Positions 9,355-21,896 of a stretch of DNA of 32,000 bases are shown here, one piece after another. Source of the DNA: Candidatus Saccharimonadota bacterium. Lineage in GTDB: Bacteria > Bacteroidota > Bacteroidia > Cytophagales > Amoebophilaceae. A program made the position numbers and the translations under genes. The stretch lies in the NCBI RefSeq assembly GCF_964030745.1, contig NZ_OZ034918.1, positions 630,001 to 662,000 on the forward strand. Direction: 5' to 3'. The notes beneath the pieces are model-generated. The model was not told the origin of the DNA and made no database searches. It saw only the letters and a list, made by a program, of their open reading frames with translations. Position 1 is the stretch's first letter; each line of letters starts with the position of its first letter.

Positions 9355-9646
9355 TGGCTATTCCCGGGTATCCATTCATCACTATGGCTACGTTTTTCTG
9401 AAAAAGTAAATGGCTGACCAATTAACAGCCCCGCGTCTCCTTCGATAAAAAATGGCGCTCTAGTAAAACGCTAACACCTGAGCGATATGTTTTTTCAGCG
9501 GATTAGAAAATCGTTTGTTTGAAGCCCGCTTGCGGGCTGAGTTCACGATTTTCCCGCTGAAAAACATATCGATTCAGCTATTTACTATCGGGCCAGACTT
9601 TTTATCGAAGGAGATAAGTGGACCAGCCACAGGCGTGAATAGATAC
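9355..9646. repeat. Composite repeat cluster 1: T(rev) + L + P1-A + flank + T(fwd)
   Basis: Matches modules found again at 14331-15240 and 30026-30423. T motifs lie at 9368-9387 (reverse) and 9627-9646 (forward). Confidence 0.85.
9437..9613 (+). repeat. P1 palindromic element, copy A (about 177 bp)
   Basis: Terminal inverted repeats are CTCCTTCGATAAAAA...TTTTTATCGAAGGAG. The centre is GAAGCCCGCTTGCGGGCT. The two arms are imperfectly complementary over about 85 nt. Copy C differs from it at about 7 positions by eye. Confidence 0.9.
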
Positions 9647-9746
9647 ATTCCCAACTTAAGCACTACAAAAGTTTATAACAACAGTTTAATAAATTAGATA
9701 AATATAAATTTATTTTTACCATAAAATAGCTGTAATTTAGTCCCCT

Positions 9747-10535: not shown

Positions 10536-11582
10536 ATGAAGTTATCCAATTTTAAGTTTGAGCTACCAGCGAGCAGCATTGCACAATATCCGATAGAGGA
10601 AAAGGAAGATGCGCGTTTAATGGTTGTACATAAAGATAGTGGCAAAATAGAGCATAAAACCTTTAAAGACCTTCCTGCTTATTTTAGTGAAGGGGATACT
10701 TTAGTGGTCAACGATTCTAAGGTATTGCCTTGTAAGCTTTATGGCTGTAAAGAAAAAACAAATGCACAAGTAGAAGTGCTTTTATTGCGGAAATTGAACG
10801 ATGAGCATGGCTTATGGGATACTATTGTCGAGCCAGCACGTAAAATCCGTATAGGGAATAAAATTTACTTTGGAGATGGCGAGTTGGTAGCTGAAATTAT
10901 AGACAATACGACTTCCAGGGGTCGCACCCTTAAATTGTTGTTTGACAGGACAGAAGAGGAATTTTATGCACTGATTAATGAAATTGGTCATATGCCTTTA
11001 CCCCATCAGATAGGGCGCCCATCCAAAGCGGAAGACCGGGAATACTATCAGACCATATTTGCGCAAAACATAGGTAGTATTGTGTTACCAGCTGCTGGGC
11101 TCCACTTTACCCCTTATTTGTTGAAGTATTTAGCCTTGCAGAACATTTCGGTTGTACCGATTACGCTCCATATTGGTTTGGGTGAACTCAGTATCATTGA
11201 TATGGAAGACTTAACCAAGGTAAGGGCTTCCTCTGAACGTTTTGTGATTACCAAGGAAGCTACACAAGTAGTCAATCAGAGCTTGCATCATCATAAAAAA
11301 GTTTGTGCTGTAGGCACTTCAGTGTTAAGGGCTATGGAATCTTCTGTTTCCGTTTCTTGCCAACTCAAAGAAGCCAGTGACTGGACTAATAAATTTATTT
11401 TACCTTCTTATACTTTTAAAGTTTGCAATGCATTATTGACCACATTTCATCTTCCTTCTTCTATTTCTTTAGTCAGCGTAGCTGCTTTTGGAGGAGAGGA
11501 GTTGATCTTAACTGCTTATGCCGAAGCTATAAAAGAAGGGTATCGGTTTTTCTTGTATGGCGACTCTATGTTGATTATATAA
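10536..11582 (+). CDS. queA: S-adenosylmethionine:tRNA ribosyltransferase-isomerase
   Basis: 348 aa. N-terminus MKLSNFKFELPASSIAQYP...R(E/D)DARLMV, plus ...LVVNDSKVLP..., ...GHMPLP..., AAGLHFT, AVGTSVLRAMES and YRFFLYGDSMLI, all typical of QueA. Confidence 0.95.
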   Translation: MKLSNFKFELPASSIAQYPIEEKEDARLMVVHKDSGKIEHKTFKDLPAYFSEGDTLVVNDSKVLPCKLYGCKEKTNAQVEVLLLRKLNDEHGLWDTIVEPARKIRIGNKIYFGDGELVAEIIDNTTSRGRTLKLLFDRTEEEFYALINEIGHMPLPHQIGRPSKAEDREYYQTIFAQNIGSIVLPAAGLHFTPYLLKYLALQNISVVPITLHIGLGELSIIDMEDLTKVRASSERFVITKEATQVVNQSLHHHKKVCAVGTSVLRAMESSVSVSCQLKEASDWTNKFILPSYTFKVCNALLTTFHLPSSISLVSVAAFGGEELILTAYAEAIKEGYRFFLYGDSMLII

Positions 11583-11641
11583 ATGGCAATATGTTGGAAG
11601 GGATCTCAAGCAGCCGATCAAGTTATAAGTTTATTCTATTT

Positions 11642-14278
11642 ATGATGATAATGGTAGATACAAATATCAAAAAAGTTAAGCGTTGGTTATGCCTCTTCTG
11701 TTTATGTATAGGATGGGCACAGCCTATCTTTGGTGCAACGGGTTATACTGTACGCAACATTCAGGTAGTGGGTAATGCGTGGGTAGCTTCTGACCGGTTG
11801 ATTGCGCTTTCTGGTTTGCAAGAAGGCGCAATGGTTGATCCATCAACTGGACAAATTCGTAATGCTATTTTAAAAATAGCCAAACAGGAGGGTGTTAAAT
11901 CTGCTTCCATTTATCTGTCTGAGGTTGACCAAGCAAATGGTTTAGCCACTTTTGTTATTCATGTAGAGGAATATCCCCGACTAACCAGCTATCTTTTAGA
12001 AGGTTTAACTAAAAAAGAGCAAAAAATGCTGCTTGAAAAAGTCACCATAGGTGATTGTGTGGCGCTATCTCCGATTTTTCTTCAAAAAACTACTGATAAG
12101 ATTAAAAACATATTTCTAGAGAAAGGGTTTAGAGAGGTAGAGGTTGCTACAGAGTTGATGCCAAGTCAGAAAATGGATCATCAAGCTGCTTTAAAGATTA
12201 AGGTCAATAAAGGGCAAAAAAGCAGGGTGCAGAAAATTATTTTTGAGGGGAATGACCATTTAGATGCTGATTGCTTGATATATCATATGAAAGAATTGCA
12301 AGAAGCGCCTCATTGTACACTTTTCCAGGATATTTTTAAGAAAATCATTACGCTTGCACCCATCCGAAAAGGTGGTATTCTGTTGCAGTTGCCTAAAAAG
12401 ATGGATGATATCAAACAGTATCTTTGTAGCCATGTTTCTTTTTTCTCATCTGTTTTTACAGAAGAAAAATACTTAAAAGCCAAAGAGAACTTAATGCTTT
12501 TTTATCGATCACAAGGGTTTCGAGATGCATATATTGCAGCAGAGCGTTTGCAACCATCTACCGATGGAAAGCTGGATATTTATTTAAAGATTAATGAGGG
12601 GAAACCATACATGATTCGCCATGTTAAATGGGTTGGCAATTATCTCTATAGTGACGAAACACTCAATAGGTTGTTAAACTTGCAGGAAGGAAAAATATAT
12701 GACCCTTGCTATATTAAAAGTCGATTGAGTCCTGGGATTACAGATGTAACGATTAGTGATTTGTATACCAATAATGGGTATCTTTTTTTCCGAGCTGAAG
12801 TTGTTGAGTCTAGTATAGAAGATAATCAGATAGATCTAGAAATTAGAATCCAAGAGGGGAAGCAGGCTACTATTCGTCAAATAGATATTGTAGGCAATAC
12901 TTTGACCCATGATTATGTTATTCGTCGTGCACTACTCACATTACCTGGGGAGCAATATAACCAAGGTCTTGTACGAGAGTCTTTACGAAACTTAGCCATG
13001 TTAAACTTATTTAAGCCGGAAAAATTAATCCCAGATATACACCCAGATGAATCTAAAGGGCAAGTAGATATTATTTATTCGGTAGAGGAGCAACCTCGGT
13101 TCGATCTTAAGCTTAATGCCCATTATAGCAATGGGATTGTAGCTGGGATTGAGCTTGGCTCTAATAATGTTTCTTTAAAAAACTTATTTTCAGGTAAAAT
13201 GCCTATAGGAGCTGCTCAGGAATTGCACTTATCAGCTGAACTGAGTGGTAAGCATTATAAAAATTTTAGTTTCTCTTTTCAAGAACCTTGGTTCTGGTTG
13301 CAGGAAAATCATTATATATTTTCCGTAAGCTTCAATAGTGCCTATCAACAAGCATCTTATACGAGAAAGAGTGTATTAGATGACTGGGTCTTCTTAAACA
13401 TATTCCCAATCTGGAAACAAAATAGAAAAGGTAAAATTTGCTCAATAGGTGGTCGAGTAAGTTTGGGGAAGCATATTGCTAGATATTGGGAGGTTCATTT
13501 GGGCATAGATTACCACCACCATACTTACCAATACTATGAGCTATTAGCAGATCATAGTAAAAGGTCTGGGGGCTTGCATGATCTTACTTTAGACGTTGCA
13601 TTGAATTATTCTAGTATCAATAATCCAAATTACCCTACTAGTGGAGCTTCTTGGTCTAATTTTTTAACCTTGACACCTCCCTATACTTTGTGTGGTTATC
13701 TACCTTCGGTAGCAACAGCCATACCACGTTTTAAGGAGTTTGGAAAGTTTATAACAGATGTATATTATTTTAAACGTTTGGTAGGTAATTGTGTTTTACA
13801 TTTTCGTGGCCATGCTGGATTTTTACATAGTCTGTCTAAACATGAAATAGGCCCTTTTGAGCGATTTTATCTAGGTGGAACATCAAATATTCCCACTAAA
13901 CTATTAGGTGTTAATTTTGTTTCGTTGCGTGGTTATCCAGATGACAGCCTTACGCCAGAAGATTACGCTAAAAAGATAAAAGGGGGCGTTTTATTTAATA
14001 AGTTTGTTTCAGAGTTGCGTTATCCACTTATGCTTGCACCTATTTGTTGCTATCTATTGGGATTTGTAGAGGTAGGAGATAGTTGGCTGCACTATGACCA
14101 TTTCAACCTATCTAATTTAAAAAAATCTATAGGTGGTGGTGTGCGTATTATTTTGCCTATTCCTATTATACCTATGCTTGGGCTTGACTTTGCCTATAGA
14201 TTGGATCCTGTAAAAGAGATCCGTAGTGCTAAAAGTTCTTTTGAATGTCATTTCACCCTTGGGCCTAGTATGCGCTAG
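11642..14278 (+). CDS. bamA: Outer membrane protein assembly factor BamA
   Basis: Track ORF 11423..14278. The 5' part overlaps the queA 3' end and begins at TTG. In-frame ATGs at 11591 and 11642 precede a signal peptide (KKVKRWLCLFCLCIGWAQPIFG). POTRA-like repeats follow (RNIQVVGN..., IIFEGNDHL, VKWVGNYLYSDETL, IDIVGNTLTHDYVIRR), then a C-terminal Omp85 barrel (FYLGG..., LRGY..., GGGVRI). Confidence 0.9.
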   Translation: MMIMVDTNIKKVKRWLCLFCLCIGWAQPIFGATGYTVRNIQVVGNAWVASDRLIALSGLQEGAMVDPSTGQIRNAILKIAKQEGVKSASIYLSEVDQANGLATFVIHVEEYPRLTSYLLEGLTKKEQKMLLEKVTIGDCVALSPIFLQKTTDKIKNIFLEKGFREVEVATELMPSQKMDHQAALKIKVNKGQKSRVQKIIFEGNDHLDADCLIYHMKELQEAPHCTLFQDIFKKIITLAPIRKGGILLQLPKKMDDIKQYLCSHVSFFSSVFTEEKYLKAKENLMLFYRSQGFRDAYIAAERLQPSTDGKLDIYLKINEGKPYMIRHVKWVGNYLYSDETLNRLLNLQEGKIYDPCYIKSRLSPGITDVTISDLYTNNGYLFFRAEVVESSIEDNQIDLEIRIQEGKQATIRQIDIVGNTLTHDYVIRRALLTLPGEQYNQGLVRESLRNLAMLNLFKPEKLIPDIHPDESKGQVDIIYSVEEQPRFDLKLNAHYSNGIVAGIELGSNNVSLKNLFSGKMPIGAAQELHLSAELSGKHYKNFSFSFQEPWFWLQENHYIFSVSFNSAYQQASYTRKSVLDDWVFLNIFPIWKQNRKGKICSIGGRVSLGKHIARYWEVHLGIDYHHHTYQYYELLADHSKRSGGLHDLTLDVALNYSSINNPNYPTSGASWSNFLTLTPPYTLCGYLPSVATAIPRFKEFGKFITDVYYFKRLVGNCVLHFRGHAGFLHSLSKHEIGPFERFYLGGTSNIPTKLLGVNFVSLRGYPDDSLTPEDYAKKIKGGVLFNKFVSELRYPLMLAPICCYLLGFVEVGDSWLHYDHFNLSNLKKSIGGGVRIILPIPIIPMLGLDFAYRLDPVKEIRSAKSSFECHFTLGPSMR

Positions 14279-14358
14279 GAGAGGGGGGAGATTATAACTA
14301 TTCGATACCTATATTATATGCAATCAAATGGCTGGCCGCCTGTGGCTGGTCCCCTTAT

Positions 14359-14525
14359 CTCCTTCGATAAAAAGTCTGGCCCGATAGTAAATAGCTGCAT
14401 CGATATCTTTTTCAGCGGGAAAATCGTGAACTCAGCCCGCTTCGCGTGCTTCACACAGACGATTTTCTAATCCGCTGAAAAAGATATCGCTCAGGTGTTC
14501 GTGTTTTACTAGAGCGCCATTTTTT
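14359..14525 (-). repeat. P1 palindromic element, copy B (reverse orientation; one terminus truncated, centre diverged)
   Basis: Begins CTCCTTCGATAAAAAGTCTGGCCCGATAGTAAATAGCTG..., which is the reverse complement of the right arm of copy A. It ends ...TAGAGCGCCATTTTTT without the ATCGAAGGAG terminus and abuts a reverse T motif (14526-14545). Confidence 0.85.
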
Positions 14526-14563
14526 GTATCTATTCACGTCACTGGTTAATAATGAATTGTATT

Positions 14564-14589
14564 CCACTTTTTTCTTGATAAAAAAGTGG
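14564..14589. repeat. Module H hairpin (10-bp stem CCACTTTTTT/AAAAAAGTGG, 6-nt loop)
   Basis: Perfect inverted repeat, read directly. The same module in reverse lies at 20533-20558, with identical flanks (GAATTGTATT / ACAAAAAATCAAG). Confidence 0.85.
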
Positions 14590-14602
14590 ACAAAAAATCA
14601 AG

Positions 14603-14738
14603 CCCTCGGTAAAAAGTTGGGGACCTCATCCCTTACAGATGGAAAAACAGAAGTCGCCCGCTGCGCGGGCTTCAAAGGAATCTGTTTTTCCTAATCATCT
14701 GCAAGGGATGAGGCCTATTTCCCCACTTTTTACAGGGG
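14603..14738 (+). repeat. P2 palindromic element, copy 1 (about 136 bp)
   Basis: CCCTCGGTAAAAAGTTGG...CAGAAGTCGCCCGCTGCGCGGGCTTCAAAGG...CCACTTTTTACAGGGG. The arms are complementary with a few bulges. The central stem is GCCCGC-TGC-GCGGGC. Confidence 0.9.
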
Positions 14739-14825
14739 CATTTTTCTACTATGGACATAGCGTTAAACGCATACGCTACGTTTGGCTGAAAAAGCAAGTG
14801 GCTAGTCCATTACCAGCCCCCGCGT

Positions 14826-15002
14826 CTCCTTCGATAAAAAAATGGCGCTCTAGTAAAACACTAACACCTGAGCGATATCTTTTTCAGCGGATTAGAAAAT
14901 CGTCTGTTTGAAGCCCGCTTGCGGGCTGAGTTCACGATTTTCCCGCTGAAAAATGTATCGATTCAGCTATTTACTATCGGGCCAGACTTTTTATCGAAGG
15001 AG
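14826..15002 (+). repeat. P1 palindromic element, copy C
   Basis: Full-length with both termini (CTCCTTCGATAAAAAAA ... TTTTTATCGAAGGAG). It is preceded by module L (14775-14825) and followed by ATAAGGCGGCCAGCCAGAGG plus T (15016-15035). Confidence 0.9.
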
Positions 15003-15044
15003 ATAAGGCGGCCAGCCAGAGGCGTGAATGGATACAAAATCAAG

Positions 15045-15180
15045 CCCTCGGTAAAAAGTTCCGGAACCCACCCCTTGCAGATGAAAAAACAGAAGTCGCC
15101 CGCTGCGCGGGCTTCAAAGGAATCTGTTTTTCCTAATCATCTGCAAGGGGTGGGTTCTATTTCGAAACTTTTTACAGGGG
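15045..15180 (+). repeat. P2 palindromic element, copy 2
   Basis: Same termini and centre as copy 1. It contains a perfect 20-bp stem, GAACCCACCCCTTGCAGATG / CATCTGCAAGGGGTGGGTTC. A T motif (15197-15216) and a P1 terminal fragment (15216-15235) follow. Confidence 0.9.
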
Positions 15181-15425
15181 CATTTTATCACTATGGCCAT
15201 AGTGTTGAACAGATACCATTTTTTTATCGAAGGAGATAAGGGGCTGATAATGATCAGAAAAGCTATTGTGGCCGCCGATAAAGGAATGCGGCGCTTCAGT
15301 AAAGCGGAAGTCTTTAAACAATCTATTTTCAGGGAAGAAAAGTAAGCAAAAAATCTCCAAAAAATGCAGTCCATTATACCTGTAAACACCAGAAACAAGG
15401 AATCCACACTATATAGCCTTCAAGT

Positions 15426-16520
15426 TTAAACCAAATCAACAATTATTTTAGCTATTTTATCCTGGGCATTAGCATGTAATGTAGTAAAAGGTGCCATGCG
15501 TTTGACAAGTTCTAGTTGTTGCGTTTCATCATTAAGTAATTCTATTACCTTGGGGATCAGTAAAAATGGACACTCCTGGTCTGTAATATGCACCACCGCT
15601 CCCTGAGCAGCCAATGGTAAGCTATTCTTAGTTTGATGGTCTCCTACTACATTGGATGATGGTACTAAAATGGTTGGCTTGCCTCTTACACAAAGCTCTG
15701 CAATAGATAAAGCACCAGCTCTAGAAATCACAATATCTGCTGCCGCATAAGCCATTTCCATATTGCTTAAAAATGGATAACATTTTATATGGCGATAGTC
15801 TTTCATCGCCTTTTTAATAGGCGCAAAATAGCGCTCGCCGGTTACCCATATCACTTGTATATCTAGGGAAGACAACTGCGCACTCCATTCTAAAAAGGTT
15901 GTGTTCAACATGCTTGCGCCCCCACTTCCACCTACCACTAGTAGACACTTTTTGTTCTGAAAGGCAGAAAAACTAAAATATTCAAGCGCATCCATTCGGT
16001 CTTCTTGGAAGGTACAAAGCGATGATCGTATGGGATTGCCTGTAAAGATTATTTTTTCTTTTGCACAAGGCAAAAAAACATCTTGATAGCCTGTACAAAC
16101 CTTATCCACAAACCTAGCCAGTAGCTTATTAGCCAACCCAGCAACGCTATTTTGTTCTTGAATCAAGGTGGGGATCCGCTGCATAGCAGCTACAAAGAGG
16201 GTGGGAAAAGAGGCATACCCCCCTGTTCCAATAACCACATCGGGTTTAAATGATTTAATAATAGATCTTGCTTGATAGAAGCTTTTTAGAAGCAGAAAGG
16301 GCAACAATAGATTTTTAAAGATTTTACGTCTTTGAAATCCCTTTATACTAATCCGCTGAATCGGATAACCAGCAGCAACTACTAATCCTACCTCCTTTCC
16401 CCCTTTGGCTCCTACAAACAAGAACACTGCATCGGGAGCCCTTCGCTTAATGCCATCAGCAATAGCTATAGCAGGATAAATATGTCCCCCAGTACCGCCA
16501 CAACCTATTAAAACACGCAT
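15426..16520 (-). CDS. murG: UDP-N-acetylglucosamine--N-acetylmuramyl-(pentapeptide) pyrophosphoryl-undecaprenol GlcNAc transferase
   Basis: 364 aa. MRVLIGCGGTGGHIYPAIAIA (G-loop), GTGGYASFP, LLVVGGSGGA and ISRAGALSIAEL are classic MurG motifs. Confidence 0.95.
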   Translation of the reverse strand: MRVLIGCGGTGGHIYPAIAIADGIKRRAPDAVFLFVGAKGGKEVGLVVAAGYPIQRISIKGFQRRKIFKNLLLPFLLLKSFYQARSIIKSFKPDVVIGTGGYASFPTLFVAAMQRIPTLIQEQNSVAGLANKLLARFVDKVCTGYQDVFLPCAKEKIIFTGNPIRSSLCTFQEDRMDALEYFSFSAFQNKKCLLVVGGSGGASMLNTTFLEWSAQLSSLDIQVIWVTGERYFAPIKKAMKDYRHIKCYPFLSNMEMAYAAADIVISRAGALSIAELCVRGKPTILVPSSNVVGDHQTKNSLPLAAQGAVVHITDQECPFLLIPKVIELLNDETQQLELVKRMAPFTTLHANAQDKIAKIIVDLV

Positions 16521-16526
16521 AAAGTA

Positions 16527-17093
16527 TTATAATGGATTAGCCCCTAAAGCTGGCTCTTGCTTGATCTCTACTGTTCCATTAGGCGCAGCAACGGTATACT
16601 TGGTTAAATCCCTTGTAGCACGAAACCCACTTCCTTTTAACACATGCTCTTTATCTGTTATTACAATGGGCAATTCTGTAAATATTATTTCTTGCTTTGT
16701 ATCGTACCATAATTGCTCTGTTTGAATAGTTAAGGAGTGTTCTGGCTTACAAATCAGGACATTGCCTGCTAGCATGCAAAGATTCTGTGCTTTGTTGTAA
16801 GAAAGCTTATCAGCTTGGATCTTTATAGGTCCCGCCTCTTTGTCAAATGTATTGCCCAATAAAACAATGGTGACGCTGCCTGCCAATGTTACATTGCCAT
16901 TCTTGTATTGGCGCATCTCACCTGCCTGAATGGTTATATCTAACCTACCCCTTTCTGTACCCAATAACTCAAATTGAGTCGTCTCTAATAAGGGAACCTC
17001 GTCTTGATCATCTGCATATAGTGGGGTATACCAACCTATTACCATAAAGCAAAATAACCCTATAAGCCCATTACATCTATACATACACTTCAA
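16527..17093 (-). CDS. LptC/OstA-like periplasmic LPS-export protein (tentative)
   Basis: 188 aa with an N-terminal anchor (GLIGLFCFMVIGWY). The repetitive beta-jellyroll pattern is typical of LptC: ...AGEMRQYKNGNVTLAGSVTI...IQADKLSYNKAQNLCMLAGNVLI...TEQLWYDTKQEIIFT...VLKGSGFRATRDLTKYTV. It ends 6 nt upstream of the murG start, so the two are probably co-transcribed. Confidence 0.5.
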   Translation of the reverse strand: MKCMYRCNGLIGLFCFMVIGWYTPLYADDQDEVPLLETTQFELLGTERGRLDITIQAGEMRQYKNGNVTLAGSVTIVLLGNTFDKEAGPIKIQADKLSYNKAQNLCMLAGNVLICKPEHSLTIQTEQLWYDTKQEIIFTELPIVITDKEHVLKGSGFRATRDLTKYTVAAPNGTVEIKQEPALGANPL

Positions 17094-17169
17094 AAACGAG
17101 GTTCTTGCTAATCTATACTATTCTATTCAAGAATAGTATAGATCAGCCAACAGAAGAGTTAAAAAGGAC

Positions 17170-18729
17170 TTATTGCTTAGCATGAGGGGTGCTACCCAAT
17201 TGAACTGCCAAATAACCAATAGTCCCTTTACTAGGTTCCATAACCTGCATCAAAACAGGTTCTCTAGTACGTCGAATCATTTCAGCTAAATCAGCTATGC
17301 TAGCAACAGGTTGCTTATCAAAAGCAAGTAAAATATAACCTTTTTTAAGGCCAGCATCCTGAAACTTTCCTTTGGAAACTTCCTGAACCAGCACTCCGTT
17401 AGTAAGCTTTAGCTTTGCTTTTGTTTTCTTATCAATATTTTGAAATACAGCACCTTCCACCTTCAGGATATCATCTTGTTGTACAATCTGTATCACATCA
17501 GGCTGCTTTTTCAATACTATTTCTATTGTTTTTACTTTACCTTTGCGGTATAATGTAATGGCTACCTTGTCACCTGGCTTAGCACAACAGATTATTTCTT
17601 GTAAATCTGGACATTTATTAACTTTTCGGCCATTGATTTGGGTAATCACATCTTCTTTTTGGAATTCCTTCCCACAAGGACTATTGTCTTGCACGCCATC
17701 GACATAGACACCGCTAATTGCTTGTAAGCCCAATTTCTGAGCCAATGCAGCATCAACATCTCGAATGGTTATACCCAATAATACCCGCTGTATAGCACCA
17801 TGTTGAATGAAATCATTGGCTACCTTTTTTACTATAGATGAAGGAATGGCAAAGCCATATCCTATAAATGTCAATGAAGAGGATCTTCCAGGACAAATAG
17901 CTGTATTAATGCCTACCAATTCTCCATATAAATTGACCAACGCGCCACCACTATTACCTGGATTAATGGCTGCATCAGTTTGAATAAAAGATTGAATCCC
18001 TAATTGCCCGTTACCAACATGATCTAGCCATCTAGATTTAGCACTTACAATTCCTTTGGTAACAGTAGAGTGGAGGTTAAAGGGGTTTCCAACTGCTAAA
18101 ACCCACTCACCTACTTCTAGTTTATCTGAACTGCCTAACGCCAAAACAGGTAGGTCAGATGCTTCAATTTTTAAAATTGCCAAATCAGTGCAGGCATCTG
18201 ACCCAACTAGTTTTGCCTTATAAGATCGATTATCATTTAAGATGACCTCTATCTGATCAGCACCCTCCACCACATGGTTATTGGTAATAATATAGCCATT
18301 GCTGGTGTAAATAACCCCAGAACCATAAGAATCTTCAGGAGGCCGTTCAGATGTTTTAGGCACCAACAATCTTTCTCCAAAAAATTCTTTAAAAAACTGC
18401 TCTAGAGGGTGGTTCGACCCCTGTTTGAGCAACTTAGGATTTTTATATATCTTTACATGCACTACTGCTCGTGTAGCCACTTTAGCTGCATAGGTAAAGT
18501 CGGGCAAGGCTGTGGGCAAAGGCTTATCCTCTGGTGCTACGATGGTTTGTTCCAGCGGTTTATGCTGCTCCACAGTAGCAACCTGCTGTAGAGCGCCAAC
18601 AGCTGTTAGGTTGCTGTTGTTACCCCGTGAATAAGGACCCACAAACCATAAACATAAGCCAAATGCAGCTACAATAACCGTATTAAACAGCTTTTTACAT
18701 ATACCCTGTTTACTAAATTGTTCGTACAT
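17170..18729 (-). CDS. htrA: Do/DegP/HtrA family periplasmic serine endoprotease with two PDZ domains
   Basis: 519 aa. Trypsin-like triad context: ITNNHVV (His), TDLAILKI (Asp), GNSGGALVN (Ser). Two PDZ-like segments follow. Confidence 0.9.
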   Translation of the reverse strand: MYEQFSKQGICKKLFNTVIVAAFGLCLWFVGPYSRGNNSNLTAVGALQQVATVEQHKPLEQTIVAPEDKPLPTALPDFTYAAKVATRAVVHVKIYKNPKLLKQGSNHPLEQFFKEFFGERLLVPKTSERPPEDSYGSGVIYTSNGYIITNNHVVEGADQIEVILNDNRSYKAKLVGSDACTDLAILKIEASDLPVLALGSSDKLEVGEWVLAVGNPFNLHSTVTKGIVSAKSRWLDHVGNGQLGIQSFIQTDAAINPGNSGGALVNLYGELVGINTAICPGRSSSLTFIGYGFAIPSSIVKKVANDFIQHGAIQRVLLGITIRDVDAALAQKLGLQAISGVYVDGVQDNSPCGKEFQKEDVITQINGRKVNKCPDLQEIICCAKPGDKVAITLYRKGKVKTIEIVLKKQPDVIQIVQQDDILKVEGAVFQNIDKKTKAKLKLTNGVLVQEVSKGKFQDAGLKKGYILLAFDKQPVASIADLAEMIRRTREPVLMQVMEPSKGTIGYLAVQLGSTPHAKQ

Positions 18730-18867
18730 AGCGATTTTATTTTTGTATTTTTACAGTCATCTTTCCATTGAGCCATAAAGGCGATTGGTGTAGGTACTAT
18801 TGGCCTATTAGGGCCATACGTACAAGCACGTTAGCAAAAATCTAAAATATTTTTCACCTATACAAAG

Positions 18868-20373
18868 ATGCATCAAATATTACGGATCTACAACAGCTTA
18901 ACCAGACAAAAAGAGGTATTTGAGCCACTTAGGCCGCCTTTTGTGGGCATCTATTTATGTGGCCCTACGGTTTATGGAAAGGCTCATCTAGGCCATGCAC
19001 GTGCAGCTATTACCTTTGATATCCTCTTTCGTTATTTACAACATCTGAACTATACCGTGCGTTATGTGCGCAACATTACAGATGTAGGCCATTTGGAACG
19101 AGACTTGGATGATGGTAAGGACAAAATAGCGCAACAGGCCAAGCTGGAGGAAATAAGCCCTATGGAGGTAGCACAACGTTACACCAATAGCTATCGGAAA
19201 AATATGGAAGTACTGAATGTATTACCTCCTAGCATTGAGCCCTGTGCAAGCGGACATATTCTAGAGCAAATTGCCATGATTGAAAAGATTCTTGAATATG
19301 GTTTGGCGTATATAATAGATGGGTCTGTCTATTTTGACGTAGCCAAATACAATCAAATGCATCATTATGGCAAGCTGTCTGGCAGGAGCATAGAAACCAC
19401 TCGTTCGGGCACACGTTCATTGACCAAACAAACCGATAAAAAACAACCGGAAGATTTTGCCTTATGGAAAAAGGCAACCCCTATGCATATCATGCGTTGG
19501 CCTTCTCCCTGGGGAGAAGGTTTTCCTGGTTGGCATATTGAGTGCTCTGCAATGGCTACAAAATATCTAGGCAATCAGTTTGACATACACGGGGGGGGAA
19601 TGGATTTGCTTTTTCCCCACCATGAATGTGAAATTGCACAGGCACAAGCTGCAGTACAAACAAATTTAGCTACTTATTGGATGCATAATAATTTGGTTAC
19701 GATTGATGGGGTAAAAATGGGTAAATCATTGGGTAATTTTATTACACTAGACGCACTGTTTTCAGGAGACCATCCTGCCCTAGATCAGCCCTATAGTCCT
19801 ATGACATTGCGGTTTTTTATGCTACAGGCCCATTATAGAAGCACCCTTTCTATTACCATAGAGGGGTTAAAAGCAGCCCATCAGGGCTATCGTAAGCTAA
19901 TGAATGGTCTCCATCTCTTGGCTAAGCTTCATCAAGAAACGGTAGCCACAACAAGCGGAAGGTTAGATGAAGCCATTTATGCAGATTGCACAGCTTGTTA
20001 CAGTGCTATAAATGACGATTTCAATACGGCAAAAGTTTTAGCCCATTTATTTAATTTGCTCAAAAAAATAAATGGATGGCACAATGGCACACTGGAGCAT
20101 GACTCCATTTCAAAAGCTGCATTGGATCAATTGCGCACTACTTATACTACCTTTACGGTAGCGCTATTAGGTCTAAAAGAGGAGCATCAACTCACTACTG
20201 ATCAAATGGTAGCAACATTTCTAAAAATTTACCAAGAGGCCAAAGCAGAGAAGCGGTACGATCAAATTGATTACATACGTACTGCACTCCATAAAATGGG
20301 TATTGCGATCAAAGACCATTCCAGTGGTGTGCGATGGGAATACCAGTGTAAGCATTCAACACTATGTCCATAG
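18868..20373 (+). CDS. cysS: Cysteine--tRNA ligase
   Basis: 501 aa. It has the class I HIGH motif (HLGHAR), KMSKS motif (KMGKS) and zinc-binding Cys/His context (CGPTVYG, HIECS, HHECE). The last 8 codons or so and the stop lie inside repeat cluster 3. Confidence 0.95.
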   Translation: MHQILRIYNSLTRQKEVFEPLRPPFVGIYLCGPTVYGKAHLGHARAAITFDILFRYLQHLNYTVRYVRNITDVGHLERDLDDGKDKIAQQAKLEEISPMEVAQRYTNSYRKNMEVLNVLPPSIEPCASGHILEQIAMIEKILEYGLAYIIDGSVYFDVAKYNQMHHYGKLSGRSIETTRSGTRSLTKQTDKKQPEDFALWKKATPMHIMRWPSPWGEGFPGWHIECSAMATKYLGNQFDIHGGGMDLLFPHHECEIAQAQAAVQTNLATYWMHNNLVTIDGVKMGKSLGNFITLDALFSGDHPALDQPYSPMTLRFFMLQAHYRSTLSITIEGLKAAHQGYRKLMNGLHLLAKLHQETVATTSGRLDEAIYADCTACYSAINDDFNTAKVLAHLFNLLKKINGWHNGTLEHDSISKAALDQLRTTYTTFTVALLGLKEEHQLTTDQMVATFLKIYQEAKAEKRYDQIDYIRTALHKMGIAIKDHSSGVRWEYQCKHSTLCP

Positions 20374-20596
20374 TAGTAAAATGCCCCTGTAAAAAGTTGG
20401 GAAATAGGCCTCACTCCTTACAGATGATTAGGAAAAACAGATTCCTTTAAAGCCCGCTTAGCGGGCGATTTCTGTTTTTCTATCTGTAAGGAGTGAGGTC
20501 CTCAACTTTTTACCGAGGGCTTGATTTTTTGTCCACTTTTTTATCAAGAAAAAAGTGGAATACAATTCATTATTAACCAGTGACGTGAACAGACAC
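20348..20596. repeat. Composite repeat cluster 3: T(rev) + P2-3(rev) + H(rev) + T(fwd). It occupies the entire convergent cysS/E2 spacer.
   Basis: Reverse-complement match to 14527-14774. The P2 core is 20384-20519, the H hairpin is 20533-20558, and T motifs lie at 20348-20367 and 20577-20596. Confidence 0.9.
20384..20519 (-). repeat. P2 palindromic element, copy 3 (reverse orientation)
   Basis: CCCCTGTAAAAAGTTGGGAAATAGGCCTCACTCCTTACAGATG...AAGCCCGCTTAGCGGGCG...ATCTGTAAGGAGTGAGGTCCTCAACTTTTTACCGAGGG. Confidence 0.9.
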
Positions 20597-20606
20597 ATAC
20601 CAGTAG

Positions 20607-21896
20607 TTATGTAAATGGATACTGATCTATATTCTCTACAAAAGATGTCAATTCCTTGGCTAAATGTTTTAAAAACCCTCCTCCCAAGGCTCCATCTATA
20701 ATTCGGTGGTCGTAGGTATGGGATAGAAACAGCTCATCGCGAATAGCAATGGTTTCTTTTCCCTGAACATAGACCACAGCAGGCCGTTTTTCAATAAGCC
20801 CCAATGCAAGAATAGCTACTTGTGGTTGTACAATAATAGGTGTGCCCATTAGGTTATCAAAACAACCAATATTAGAAATGGTATAGCTGGCGCCGGTTAG
20901 TGCATCAGGCATAATGGTGCCGCTGCGTGCTTTATGGATCAACACATCAATCTGCCTGGCCAATGATACCAAACCAAGCTGTTCTACTCTATGGACCACA
21001 GGAACCAATACATTACCATCTGGTAATGCCACTGCAAAACCTATATTAACATGCTTGCGCTTAATAATTCGATCTGCTGCTACTACTGCATTGAGCAGTG
21101 GAAATTGTTGTAAGGCACGTGCAATCACTGTCATAAAAATAGGATTATAGGTCAACTTAATCCCATACTTTTCCTCAAAAGAAGCCTTATATTGATTCCT
21201 CCAAGCAACAATGGAGGTTACATCCGCACGTATAAAAGAGGTAACATGCGGTGCAATTTGCTTAGATGCAACCATACGATCGGCAATGAGTTTGCGCACA
21301 CGGTCCATTTGGACTACCTCATCCCCCTCTAAAGGGGTAACGGCTTCATGAAACAAATGGCGATCGGAAGGGGGAGTATGGTTGGGCATTCGCTTGCTTA
21401 AATAAGCCAAAAGGGCTGCTTTGGTCACCCAATGATCGGTAGCACAACCAGCCAATCTGGATAGCTCATCTGCTGAAATACCATGCTGCTTCGCAATATG
21501 CCTGGCTACGGGGGTGAGTTTTGCTTTGCTAAAAGCTTGCAAAGCAAAGGATCTATCTCCCACATTAGGTGGTGGGAGGGTGGCTGCTACAGCGGCTACA
21601 GTGGATTGTACCCCTATAGAAGATTGTTCATGGGCCACAGTAGGTAGCACAATATTTTCGACTTCTAATAAAGCAATAGGCGCTCCAATGGCCACTACCG
21701 CTCCTTTGCTTACTAATAATTTTTTAACCTTACCAGTATAAGCAGCGGGAATTTCTGCATCAACCTTATCTGTGGCAACCTCCAATAGAGGCGCACCTTC
21801 CACAATAGTTGCTCCCTCGCTTACACACCAATGCAATACTATTGCTTCCATCACACTTTCACCCATCTTAGGTAAGTAGAGTGTTATTAAGGACAT
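20607..21896 (-). CDS. 2-oxoacid dehydrogenase complex E2 component (dihydrolipoamide acyltransferase); substrate class not assignable
   Basis: Lipoyl domain with the lipoyl-Lys context (LEVATDKVDAEIPA), an E3-binding domain (LTPVARHIAKQHGISADEL) and the catalytic motif SHTYDHRIIDGA. The track ORF starts at GTG 21905; the ATG at 21896 gives the usual MSLITLYLPKMGESV N-terminus. Confidence 0.9.
   Translation of the reverse strand: MSLITLYLPKMGESVMEAIVLHWCVSEGATIVEGAPLLEVATDKVDAEIPAAYTGKVKKLLVSKGAVVAIGAPIALLEVENIVLPTVAHEQSSIGVQSTVAAVAATLPPPNVGDRSFALQAFSKAKLTPVARHIAKQHGISADELSRLAGCATDHWVTKAALLAYLSKRMPNHTPPSDRHLFHEAVTPLEGDEVVQMDRVRKLIADRMVASKQIAPHVTSFIRADVTSIVAWRNQYKASFEEKYGIKLTYNPIFMTVIARALQQFPLLNAVVAADRIIKRKHVNIGFAVALPDGNVLVPVVHRVEQLGLVSLARQIDVLIHKARSGTIMPDALTGASYTISNIGCFDNLMGTPIIVQPQVAILALGLIEKRPAVVYVQGKETIAIRDELFLSHTYDHRIIDGALGGGFLKHLAKELTSFVENIDQYPFT

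What the first reader, a model, noticed from the sequence alone, without database searches (positions are those of the whole stretch)
14331..15240. About 0.9-kb mosaic nest of repeat modules between convergent bamA and murG
The spacer is built almost entirely from modules in a fixed grammar: P1(rev) - T - H - P2 - T-like - L - P1 - T - P2 - T - P1 fragment. The same modules appear in other combinations and orientations at 9355-9646, 20348-20596 and 30026-30423. This resembles the enterobacterial BIME/REP organisation, but the units here are much longer. Nested or abutting insertions imply either a preferred target inside the element itself or recombination at the junction motif.
Basis: seen in the sequence. 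Interest (0 to 1): 0.7.

Follow-up and report, generated by a model that had tools for sequence, protein, structure and literature searches.

The report
Nested palindromic MITEs in Cardinium
The 0.9-kb gap between bamA and murG in this insect-symbiont (Cardinium) genome is a pile-up of small non-coding "jumping" DNA elements inserted into and next to one another: an ordinary kind of selfish DNA, although I found no published description of this family.

Summary
The spacer is almost entirely repeat modules that recur at 9368-9646, 20348-20596 and 29912-30423 (BLAST E 1e-59 to 1e-104; 200 shuffles never exceed 34 bits against 367 observed).

The window comes from the Cardinium endosymbiont of the beetle Philonthus spinipes. 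The modules are not REP/BIME units. They are two families of 250-280-bp non-coding, almost fully palindromic elements, A and B. Both share the same roughly 20-nt terminal inverted repeat (GTATCYATTCAYCACTATGG) and are flanked by 8-bp target-site duplications, so they are MITE-like.

The nest is an old, eroded A copy split by a 691-bp block (B, then A without its left end, then B without its left end). That block is flanked by a perfect CATTTTTT duplication, and removing it restores the A sequence exactly. A related strain has an empty site where another B copy sits on the cysS stop codon.

The B-to-A junction recurs in at least 10 annotated ORFs of this genome, so the B-A composite is itself multi-copy. 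B occurs in five Cardinium lineages, and its long hairpin is kept by compensatory changes. The transposase is unidentified; an IS256-family enzyme is the best candidate.

Verdict: new member of a known kind, modest interest.

The parts
14337..14525 (-). Old A-family copy, part 1 (inverted). Its outer terminal repeat is lost. It ends at the insertion point.
   Evidence: 93% identical to 9635-9447. Aligns to the other A copies continuously across the excision junction.
14518..14525 (.). Target-site duplication, copy 1: CATTTTTT.
   Evidence: Identical 8-mer at 15217-15224. It flanks a block that starts with a left TIR and ends with a right TIR.
14526..14774 (+). Complete B-family element (B_long, 249 bp). 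Left TIR GTATCTATTCACGTCACTGG, a small 'H' hairpin, a long core hairpin, and a degenerate right TIR ...GTTAAACGCATAC.
   Evidence: 92% identical over 253 nt to 20597-20345. DNA fold -62.1 kcal/mol, z = -11.3.
14775..15035 (+). A-family element lacking its 19-nt left TIR (A'). It abuts the right end of B_long, and together they form the 511-bp B-A composite (14526-15035).
   Evidence: 91.6% identical to 9387-9647. The same B-to-A junction (..GHSVKRI|RYVWLKKQ..) is present in at least 10 distinct annotated ORFs of this genome.
15036..15216 (+). B-family element lacking its left TIR and H hairpin (B'). It has an intact right TIR ...CCATAGTGTTGAACAGATAC and abuts the right TIR of A'.
   Evidence: 87% identical to 14587-14774 and to 20535-20355.
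15217..15257 (-). Old A-family copy, part 2. It begins with target-site duplication copy 2 (CATTTTTT, 15217-15224), followed by the 'T' motif and arm remnant.
   Evidence: Joining 14525 to 15225 restores ...GAGCGCCATTTTTTTATCGAAGGAGA..., the canonical A sequence.
9368..9646 (+). Solo, complete A-family element (279 bp) with both TIRs, flanked by ATTCCCGG / ATTCCCAA.
   Evidence: TIR matches with 0 and 1 mismatches. Strain cSfur (L002) has a single ATTCCC and a spacer about 283 bp shorter at the orthologous site. DNA fold -66.2 kcal/mol, z = -10.3.
20348..20596 (-). Solo, complete B-family element (249 bp) inserted on the cysS stop codon. It is flanked by a perfect 8-bp duplication, ATACCAGT (20340-20347 and 20597-20604).
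   Evidence: Empty site in L003, where cysS and the E2 gene abut. cysS ends WEYQ* in L002 and L004 and WEYLT* in L003, and excision in silico restores WEYQ*. Here the ORF runs 8 codons into the element.
29912..30063 (+). Third, short TIR-bearing element (X, 152 bp): GGATCCGTTCATGACTGTGG ... CCATAGCCGTGAACGGGTAT.
   Evidence: Read from the sequence and TIR scan. No second full copy in the window, so this is the least certain part.
30064..30095 (+). 32-nt fragment of the B left arm (GCCCTCGGAAAAAAGTTGTGGCCCCACTCCTT). It abuts the right TIR of X.
   Evidence: B profile hit at 30062-30106, E = 4.6e-5. Sequence read.
30096..30372 (+). A-family element lacking its left end. It has the long, symmetric right arm and an intact right TIR.
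   Evidence: 92% identical to 14796-15003. TIR match with 0 mismatches at 30358-30372.
30373..30423 (+). Right-end fragment of an X- or A-type element, ending in the TIR ...GTGAATAGATAC.
   Evidence: TIR match with 0 mismatches at 30409-30423. Similar to 30026-30063.

Best explanation

Shown:
- Two families, A (about 280 bp) and B (about 250 bp), are each almost a perfect long hairpin with a GC-rich tip. They share the same roughly 20-nt terminal inverted repeat and encode nothing.
- Insertion duplicates 8 bp of target.
- The nest's final structure has a 691-bp block (B, 5'-truncated A, 5'-truncated B, bounded by one left and one right TIR) sitting in the A/T run of an older A copy.
- B plus truncated A is itself a multi-copy composite whose internal end has degenerated.

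Inferred:
- The elements are moved in trans by a DDE-type transposase encoded elsewhere. The best candidate is an IS256-family enzyme.
- The nest formed because convergent-gene spacers and pre-existing copies are harmless landing sites.
- The junctions where a right TIR directly abuts a 5'-truncated neighbour arose by end-adjacent deletion or illegitimate recombination at the hairpins.
- The long hairpin is under constraint, either for transposition or because it acts as a two-way terminator.
For: - Significance of the repeats.
- Shared TIR: scan gives 20 matches against 6.2 expected, including 0-1-mismatch hits at every element end.
- 8-bp duplications: CATTTTTT, ATACCAGT, and ATTCCCGG/ATTCCCAA in the window; CAAACTGA around a B copy on a Cardinium plasmid; CTCCAACT/TCCCAACT in cOegib.
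- Empty sites in related strains at cysS/E2 and at the 9.4-kb site.
- Seamless in-silico excision restores the split A copy.
- No transposase or any protein family in the elements or the window.
- 25 annotated 'hypothetical' ORFs of the same genome lie in A or B copies. At least 9 B copies end exactly at the TIR and then diverge into different flanking sequence. At least 10 share the B-to-A junction, several with identical sequence, which suggests recent spread.
- B copies occur in cSfur, cOegib, cBcalN2 and a D. farinae Cardinium plasmid.
- Hairpin: z of about -10 to -11. 87% of cells are paired against 41-56% in slid controls. 14 pairs change on both sides against 5-8 in controls.
- The IS256-family IS of cOegib makes an 8-bp duplication, and its ends share 8-12 of 20 positions in register with the MITE TIRs (null mean 5.3).
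- 3 of 4 convergent gene junctions carry elements against 1 of 19 other junctions (P = 0.009).
Against: - No autonomous parent element with the same ends was found. The TIR similarity to IS256-type ends is modest and was chosen after the fact.
- The source genome beyond the window could not be read, so copy number, target preference and the presence of any active transposase are untested.
- Only one nesting event has a clean duplication. The four or five junctions of the form 'right TIR | truncated element' have no duplication and are not explained by simple insertion.
- Copies within the window differ by 5-13%, so some are old.
- The covariation rests on 8 related sequences, and the structure was derived from the same alignment.
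Confidence: 0.82

Rival explanations
1. REP/BIME-type organisation: short extragenic palindromes arranged in a fixed grammar and spread by a RAYT (REP-associated tyrosine transposase).
For: The elements are intergenic, palindromic, clustered in mosaics and have a GC-rich stem-loop at their centre.
Against: Units are 250-280 bp, not 20-40 nt. They have 20-nt terminal inverted repeats and 8-bp target duplications, which REPs lack. No RAYT or IS200-like gene is in the window. There is no GTAG/CGTC head on a short palindrome.
Confidence: 0.03
2. The mosaic was made mainly by homologous or illegitimate recombination and local duplication among pre-existing repeats at a rearrangement breakpoint, not by successive insertions.
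For: The bamA|murG adjacency is unique to this strain: three relatives have different genes after murG. Four or five junctions join a right TIR directly to a truncated element with no duplication. A(rev) and A' form a 189-nt inverted pair that is 94-96% alike. The B-fragment/A junction at 30095/30096 shows only microhomology.
Against: The 691-bp block has a perfect 8-bp duplication, and its removal restores the host A copy exactly. Solo copies have duplications and empty sites. Recombination therefore explains some internal junctions but not the origin of the elements or the nesting event.
Confidence: 0.1
3. The modules are primarily functional host elements, such as two-way transcription terminators or structured RNAs, duplicated for that role. 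Mobility would be secondary or absent.
For: The B hairpin is conserved by compensatory change in five Cardinium lineages. On both strands it is preceded by an A-run and followed by a U-rich run. Elements are enriched between convergent genes.
Against: No Rfam family matches. G-U and A-C mismatches are equally frequent (18 against 18, my count), so no transcribed strand is favoured. TIRs, duplications, strain-specific positions and a recent multi-copy burst are transposon features. Enrichment at convergent junctions is also what purifying selection against harmful insertions would give. The simple terminator scan gave 4 sites against 1.6 expected.
Confidence: 0.05

Closest known systems
MITECca01 / MITECca02 of Cardinium cOegib (Halter et al. 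2022, PMC9769881)
   Same: Same genus. About 240-bp non-coding element with terminal inverted repeats, high copy number, mostly intergenic, and nesting in other mobile elements.
   Different: MITECca01 has the ends of the IS982-family ISCca4 (...CTAATCCCGAACT..; seen in L004 and L032) and is reported to be unique to cOegib. The elements here end in GTATCYATTCA, are near-complete palindromes, and family B is present in five lineages, including cOegib itself.
Correia elements (CREE/NEMIS) of Neisseria
   Same: Roughly 100-155-bp MITE-like repeats with TIRs and no known parent transposase. They fold as hairpins and influence transcript ends. (From my own knowledge.)
   Different: Correia elements duplicate TA, have 26-bp TIRs and are half the size. 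Here the duplication is 8 bp.
ERIC/IRU and Rickettsia palindromic elements (RPE)
   Same: Long imperfect palindromes of 100-170 bp dispersed in the genome, including in an obligate intracellular bacterium (RPE). Variants exist with internal insertions. (From my own knowledge.)
   Different: No clear TIR-plus-8-bp-duplication signature is described for them. RPEs often sit in frame inside genes; here only a stop codon is displaced (cysS).
REP/BIME of enterobacteria
   Same: Extragenic palindromes arranged in mosaics between genes.
   Different: REP units are 20-40 nt, lack TIRs and target duplications, and are linked to RAYT genes. None of that fits.
IS256-family insertion sequences (ISCca9/10 type)
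   Same: 8-bp target duplication (TATACGGC in L004). Terminal repeat GGAAGTGTTCTATAAACTG shares the core TGTTC.A.A in register with the MITE ends.
   Different: Only 8-12 of 20 positions match, there is no sub-terminal similarity, and presence of such a transposase in this genome is untested.

Membership tests
MITE (miniature inverted-repeat transposable element) | Short (about 100-500 bp) and without coding capacity | tested here: met
   Elements are 152-279 bp. ORFs inside them hit no NCBIfam family. The homologues of the one ORF searched are confined to this genome's repeat copies.
MITE (miniature inverted-repeat transposable element) | Terminal inverted repeats | tested here: met
   About 20-nt TIR GTATCYATTCAYCACTATGG / CCATAGTGWTGAAYRGATAC at the ends of A, B and X. 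20 matches against 6.2 expected.
MITE (miniature inverted-repeat transposable element) | Target-site duplication of fixed length, and empty sites in relatives | tested here: met
   Three perfect 8-bp duplications (CATTTTTT, ATACCAGT, CAAACTGA) and two with 6 of 8 matching. Empty cysS/E2 site in L003. In-silico excision restores both host sequences.
MITE (miniature inverted-repeat transposable element) | Multi-copy, dispersed | tested here: met
   7 full or partial A and B copies plus fragments in 32 kb. 25 annotated ORFs in other copies of the same genome. The full genome count was not obtainable.
MITE (miniature inverted-repeat transposable element) | A parent IS with the same ends that supplies the transposase | tested here: inconclusive
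   No transposase in the window. No IS in L002-L004, L031 or L032 carries these ends. The IS256-type end gives 8-12 of 20 in register and the IS6-type end 7 of 20.
REP/BIME | 20-40-nt imperfect palindrome units | tested here: not met
   Units are 250-280 bp.
REP/BIME | No TIR and no target duplication; associated RAYT gene | tested here: not met
   TIRs and 8-bp duplications are present. No RAYT in the window. Genome-wide absence is not testable here.
MITECca01 (IS982-derived, cOegib) | Ends identical to ISCca4 (..CTAATCCCGAACT..) followed by AGMTTGTW | tested here: not met
   ISCca4 and MITECca01 ends read in L004 and L032 differ completely from GTATCYATTCA. No IS982 transposase of this genome appears among the top hits.
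Correia element | TA target duplication, 26-bp TIR, 100-155 bp | tested here: not met
   Duplication is 8 bp and size is 250-280 bp. The Correia features are cited from my own knowledge.
IS256-family-mobilised element | 8-9-bp duplication and ends recognised by an IS256-family transposase | tested here: inconclusive
   The 8-bp duplication matches that of the cOegib IS256-family copy. End similarity is modest: the best comparisons reach 11-12 of 20, a level met by 0.6% of random 20-mers, before correcting for several comparisons. Activity is not testable with these tools.

The most novel reading that the evidence does not exclude
Family B is not just tolerated junk. It would be a genus-wide mobile hairpin cassette kept by selection because it works as a two-way intrinsic terminator or insulator between convergent genes in these gene-dense symbiont genomes. 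That would explain why its roughly 130-nt stem is preserved by compensatory changes in five Cardinium lineages, and why A/T runs flank it on both strands. A further possibility is that end-abutting arrays reflect a transposase that targets existing element ends.
Probability: 0.2. Interest if true: 0.55.

Novelty: new member of a known kind. Interest (0 to 1): 0.35.

Why it matters
Cardinium genomes are hard to assemble and annotate because of repeats. The only MITE described for the genus was said to be strain-specific.

This family (or superfamily: A, B, X and the B-A composite) is a second, unrelated one. Its B branch is shared across the genus, including a plasmid. It breaks short-read assemblies exactly at its copies (L001). 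It generates at least two dozen spurious 'hypothetical protein' annotations in this genome. It rewrites a gene end (cysS gains 8 codons). It also sits at a lineage-specific synteny breakpoint.

A consensus for it would improve annotation. It would also give markers for strain typing and for dating bursts of transposition in a reproductive manipulator of arthropods. The conserved hairpin offers a testable case of a mobile element doubling as a terminator.

Tried and rejected
- Rfam at gathering thresholds and a tRNA scan of the window found nothing.
- A scan of species-representative genomes with the 'T' motif gave only chance hits plus one site in Cardinium cBcalN2. This shows that the source genome is not in that collection and that family A is lineage-restricted.
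- Metagenome scans with the B core (0 hits) and the TIR (10 hits, all in unrelated, mostly higher-GC contigs in which the motif lies in an open reading frame) led nowhere. Two viral-contig scans gave 0 hits.
- Exact-protein look-ups could not reach the source genome. murG returned only a 5.1-kb Logan contig, and a repeat ORF was not on record.
- Plasmid search gave one weak B hit on a D. farinae Cardinium plasmid. That plasmid has no classical transposase. Accession HE983996 is not held.
- Parent-IS hunt: the ends of IS982, IS256, IS5/IS4 and a partial IS6 in cOegib loci were compared, and none is a convincing match.
- Supplementary IS tables of the cBtQ1 paper are not held.
- The simple promoter and terminator scan was uninformative because its stem limit is far below these hairpins.
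- I considered parsing the 691-bp block as one B split by an insertion. This was rejected because the insert would lack a left end and a duplication.
- I considered reading P0123 as a second hit in the same A/T-run target. It was left open because the protein-level evidence is too weak.

Full report
**Source and genes.** The window (39.7% G+C) comes from a Cardinium endosymbiont. Its murG is 100% identical to a protein on a 1,093,165-bp NCBI contig. Small ORFs inside the repeats are annotated as hypothetical proteins of 'Cardinium endosymbiont of Philonthus spinipes'. A 2025 review lists this closed genome as strain icPhiSpin1 (PMC12342168). NCBIfam confirms bamA (11423-14278, +) and murG (15426-16520, -). 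It also names the neighbours queA, lptC, an HtrA-type protease, cysS, an E2 acyltransferase, mgtE, secDF, uvrA and two lspA genes. No transposase is encoded in the window.

- Self-comparison finds two repeat families.
- Family A lies at 9387-9647, 14337-14525 (inverted), 14775-15036 and 30098-30351.
- Family B lies at 14525-14777, 15029-15216 and 20345-20597 (inverted).
- Identities are 87-93% over 180-263 nt, with E-values of 1e-59 to 1e-104.
- In 200 dinucleotide-preserving shuffles of 14331-15240, no hit to the rest of the window exceeded 33.7 bits, against 367 bits observed.

**True ends of the elements.** It is a roughly 20-nt terminal inverted repeat shared by both families: left GTATC[C/T]ATTCA[T/C]CACTATGG, right CCATAGTG[A/T]TGAA[T/C][G/A]GATAC.
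- A scan for it gives 20 matches against 6.2 expected. The matches with 0-2 mismatches fall at the element ends.
- The solo A copy is 9368-9646 (279 bp).
- The solo B copy is 20348-20596 (249 bp).
- A third, short element (X, 29912-30063) has similar ends.
- 'T' (TTTTTATCGAAGGAGA and its complement) is the sub-terminal inverted repeat inside A.

**Evidence of transposition.**
- The solo B copy is flanked by a perfect 8-bp direct repeat, ATACCAGT (20340-20347 and 20597-20604).
- In a related strain (L003) cysS and the E2 gene abut with no spacer. cysS ends WEYQ* in L002 and L004 and WEYLT* in L003. Removing the element and one repeat copy from the window restores TGG GAA TAC CAG TAG. In the window the reading frame runs 8 extra codons into the element.
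- The solo A copy is flanked by ATTCCCGG / ATTCCCAA. Strain cSfur (L002) has a single ATTCCC there and a spacer about 283 bp shorter.
- A complete B copy on plasmid p_A of a Dermatophagoides farinae Cardinium has a perfect CAAACTGA duplication. A 159-bp miniature B in cOegib has CTCCAACT / TCCCAACT.
- The elements therefore insert with an 8-bp target duplication.

**Anatomy of the nest.**
- An old A copy in inverted orientation occupies 14337-14525 and continues at 15217-15257. Both of its outer TIRs have eroded.
- Between the two parts lies a 691-bp block (14526-15216). It begins with a left TIR (GTATCTATTCACG) and ends with a right TIR (GAACAGATAC). It is flanked by a perfect CATTTTTT on each side.
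- Deleting the block and one CATTTTTT gives ...GAGCGCCATTTTTTTATCGAAGGAGA.... This aligns without a break to the three other A copies. One nested insertion is thus demonstrated, and its target was the A/T run of A's 'T' region.
- Inside the block are a complete B (14526-14774), an A lacking its 19-nt left TIR (14775-15035) and a B lacking its left TIR and 'H' hairpin (15036-15216). Each abuts the right TIR of the element before it, with no duplication.
- The nest at 29912-30423 has the same style of junction: X | B fragment | A without its left end | right-end fragment.

**Genome-wide hints without the genome.** The source genome is absent from the species-representative collection and from the gene-position index. 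I therefore used ORFs that annotators called inside the repeats. One such ORF recovered 14 clusters (25 proteins), all from this genome.
- Nine loci carry a B reading frame that ends exactly at ...GHSVEQI (= GAACAGATAC) and then diverges into different flanking sequence. This confirms the right terminus in independent contexts.
- Five A-derived ORFs read through ...GVNRY/GVNGY or, in one case, GVNRH (= GTGAATRGATAC) and then diverge.
- Ten distinct proteins carry the same B-to-A junction (..GHSVKRI|RYVWLKKQVASPLP..), and several are identical over 60 or more residues. One of them (P0135) is the window's own ORF 14639-14911.
- The 511-bp B-A composite (14526-15035) is therefore itself a multi-copy unit that appears to have spread recently.
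- Its internal B end (GTTAAACGCATAC) is the most degenerate right TIR seen. That is what one expects if loss of an internal end forces the pair to move together (inference).
- The A'-to-B' junction was not seen elsewhere.

**Distribution.** Family B occurs at 73-80% identity in cSfur (three copies in L002), cOegib (L004, L032), cBcalN2 (L018) and the D. farinae plasmid. Family A was found only in this genome. The exact 'T'-motif scan of 185,579 species-representative genomes gave only chance hits plus a single site in cBcalN2. The A and B profiles weakly detect each other (E 1e-5 to 1e-8), and both share TIRs and a central GCCCGC...GCGGGC stem. They are probably diverged relatives.

**The hairpin.**
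- Both families fold into one long hairpin: DNA -62 and -66 kcal/mol, z = -11.3 and -10.3.
- On an alignment of eight B copies from four strains plus a plasmid, 87% of cells pair, against 41-56% when partners are slid by 1-3 columns.
- 14 of 47 pairs change on both sides, against 5-8 in slid controls and 7.0 ± 1.7 in shuffles.
- G-U and A-C mismatches are equally common (18 each, counted). No single transcribed strand is therefore favoured, and the constraint acts on DNA or on both strands.
- Caveats: there are few, related sequences, and the structure was predicted from the same alignment.
- As RNA, either strand of the solo B gives a roughly 130-nt stem followed by a U-rich run (UUGAUUUUUU or AUUUU). 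The flanking A/T runs are conserved across strains. A two-way terminator role is therefore possible but unproven.
- Elements occupy 3 of the 4 convergent gene junctions in the window and 1 of 19 other junctions (hypergeometric P = 0.009). This fits either a terminator role or simple purging of harmful insertions.

**Which transposase?** Unknown.
- The published Cardinium MITE (MITECca01, PMC9769881) derives from the IS982-family ISCca4. Its ends (..CTAATCCCGAACT..), visible in L004 and L032, are unrelated. No IS982 transposase of this genome appears among close hits.
- Among IS ends I could read, the IS256-family copy in cOegib (L004 16587-17933) is the nearest. It has an 8-bp duplication (TATACGGC). 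Its 24-bp ends share 8-12 of the first 20 positions in register with the ten MITE TIRs. The null mean is 5.3, P(at least 11) = 0.006, and shifted registers give 2-7.
- An IS6-type end gives 7 of 20 (my count on the sequence).
- I therefore name an IS256-family enzyme as the leading candidate, at perhaps 35-40% confidence. Other families that make 8-bp duplications (IS6, IS66, IS1, from my own knowledge) remain open.

**Context.** The bamA|murG adjacency is specific to this strain. Downstream of murG, cSfur has an ankyrin gene, OZ239769 has small ORFs and cOegib has IS982 copies. In cSfur the bamA block lies on the other side of the murG-cysS block. The nest thus sits at a synteny breakpoint. 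Whether the repeats caused the rearrangement or merely accumulated there cannot be told. A Logan short-read contig from a 99.7%-identical strain (L001) covers window 15298-20397; one end lies inside the solo B copy and the other about 40 nt beyond the last recognisable remnant of the nest.

**Verdict.** The finding is a real and correctly located repeat nest. Its nature is MITE-like transposons of a family I did not find described, not REP/BIME. It is a new member of a known kind. It has two mildly unusual features: a propagating composite, and a genus-wide hairpin kept by compensatory change.

Noticed in passing
window 20335-20373: The B insertion displaced the cysS stop codon. The ORF now ends WEYQCKHSTLCP* instead of WEYQ*, so 8 codons are supplied by the element.
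   Followed up: yes
window 20608-20622 and 30428-30440: TIR-like sequences sit in native gene ends next to elements. TGTAAATGGATAC is in the last codons of the E2 gene, 4 nt from the B duplication, and is also present (ACGTAAACGGATAC) in the uninterrupted strain L003. GTATCTATATCAC contains the stop codon of the carboxylesterase gene. This could be chance or could hint at end-like target preference.
   Followed up: partly
window 5846-6457 and 6471-7055: Two tandem lspA (signal peptidase II) paralogues, 72-77% identical at the DNA level (repeat families D3 and D4, spacing 625).
   Followed up: no
window 29195-29391: An 81-bp tandem repeat inside ORF 28962-29900: two perfect copies plus a third partial one, in frame (27 aa each). 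The ORF has no family match.
   Followed up: no
window 11423-11582: The mechanical bamA ORF (TTG start at 11423) overlaps queA by 160 nt. The real start is probably further downstream.
   Followed up: no
L018 5546-5810 (Cardinium cBcalN2): Next to a B copy lies another inverted-repeat pair (5546-5574 / 5752-5780) and then the 'T' motif TTTTTTTATCGAAGGAGATAAG just upstream of a gene. So cBcalN2 also has a small nest, and possibly an A-related relic.
   Followed up: partly
L004 6047-6106 (cOegib): An independent B left end (TIR plus H hairpin) lies about 70 nt downstream of cysS in cOegib, in the opposite orientation to the window's copy. The 3' flank of cysS has therefore been hit twice in different lineages.
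   Followed up: partly
L002 15300-15660 and L004 14940-15000: B copies in cSfur and cOegib lie beside tRNA genes. Three right flanks read TCCCAAC or TCCCACG (also window 9647, ATTCCCAAC), a possible weak target motif.
   Followed up: no
L032 8200-9900 (cOegib): An IS6-family transposase gene is chopped up by several MITECca01 copies, as the 2022 paper describes. A B copy without recognisable TIRs lies at 4366-4561, inside a called 113-aa 'gene' among phage-tail-like (afp/T6SS-type) genes.
   Followed up: no
L021-L030 (metagenome contigs): The 20-nt TIR pattern hit ten metagenome contigs with only two sequence variants. In most of them the motif lies in an open reading frame (..VSVHHCG..) in contigs of 38-59% G+C. 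This looks like a conserved gene motif unrelated to the MITEs.
   Followed up: partly
window 14639-14911 and other loci of the genome: At least 25 RefSeq/GenBank 'hypothetical proteins' of this genome (for example WP_342264990.1) are reading frames inside A or B repeats, so they are almost certainly annotation artefacts.
   Followed up: yes
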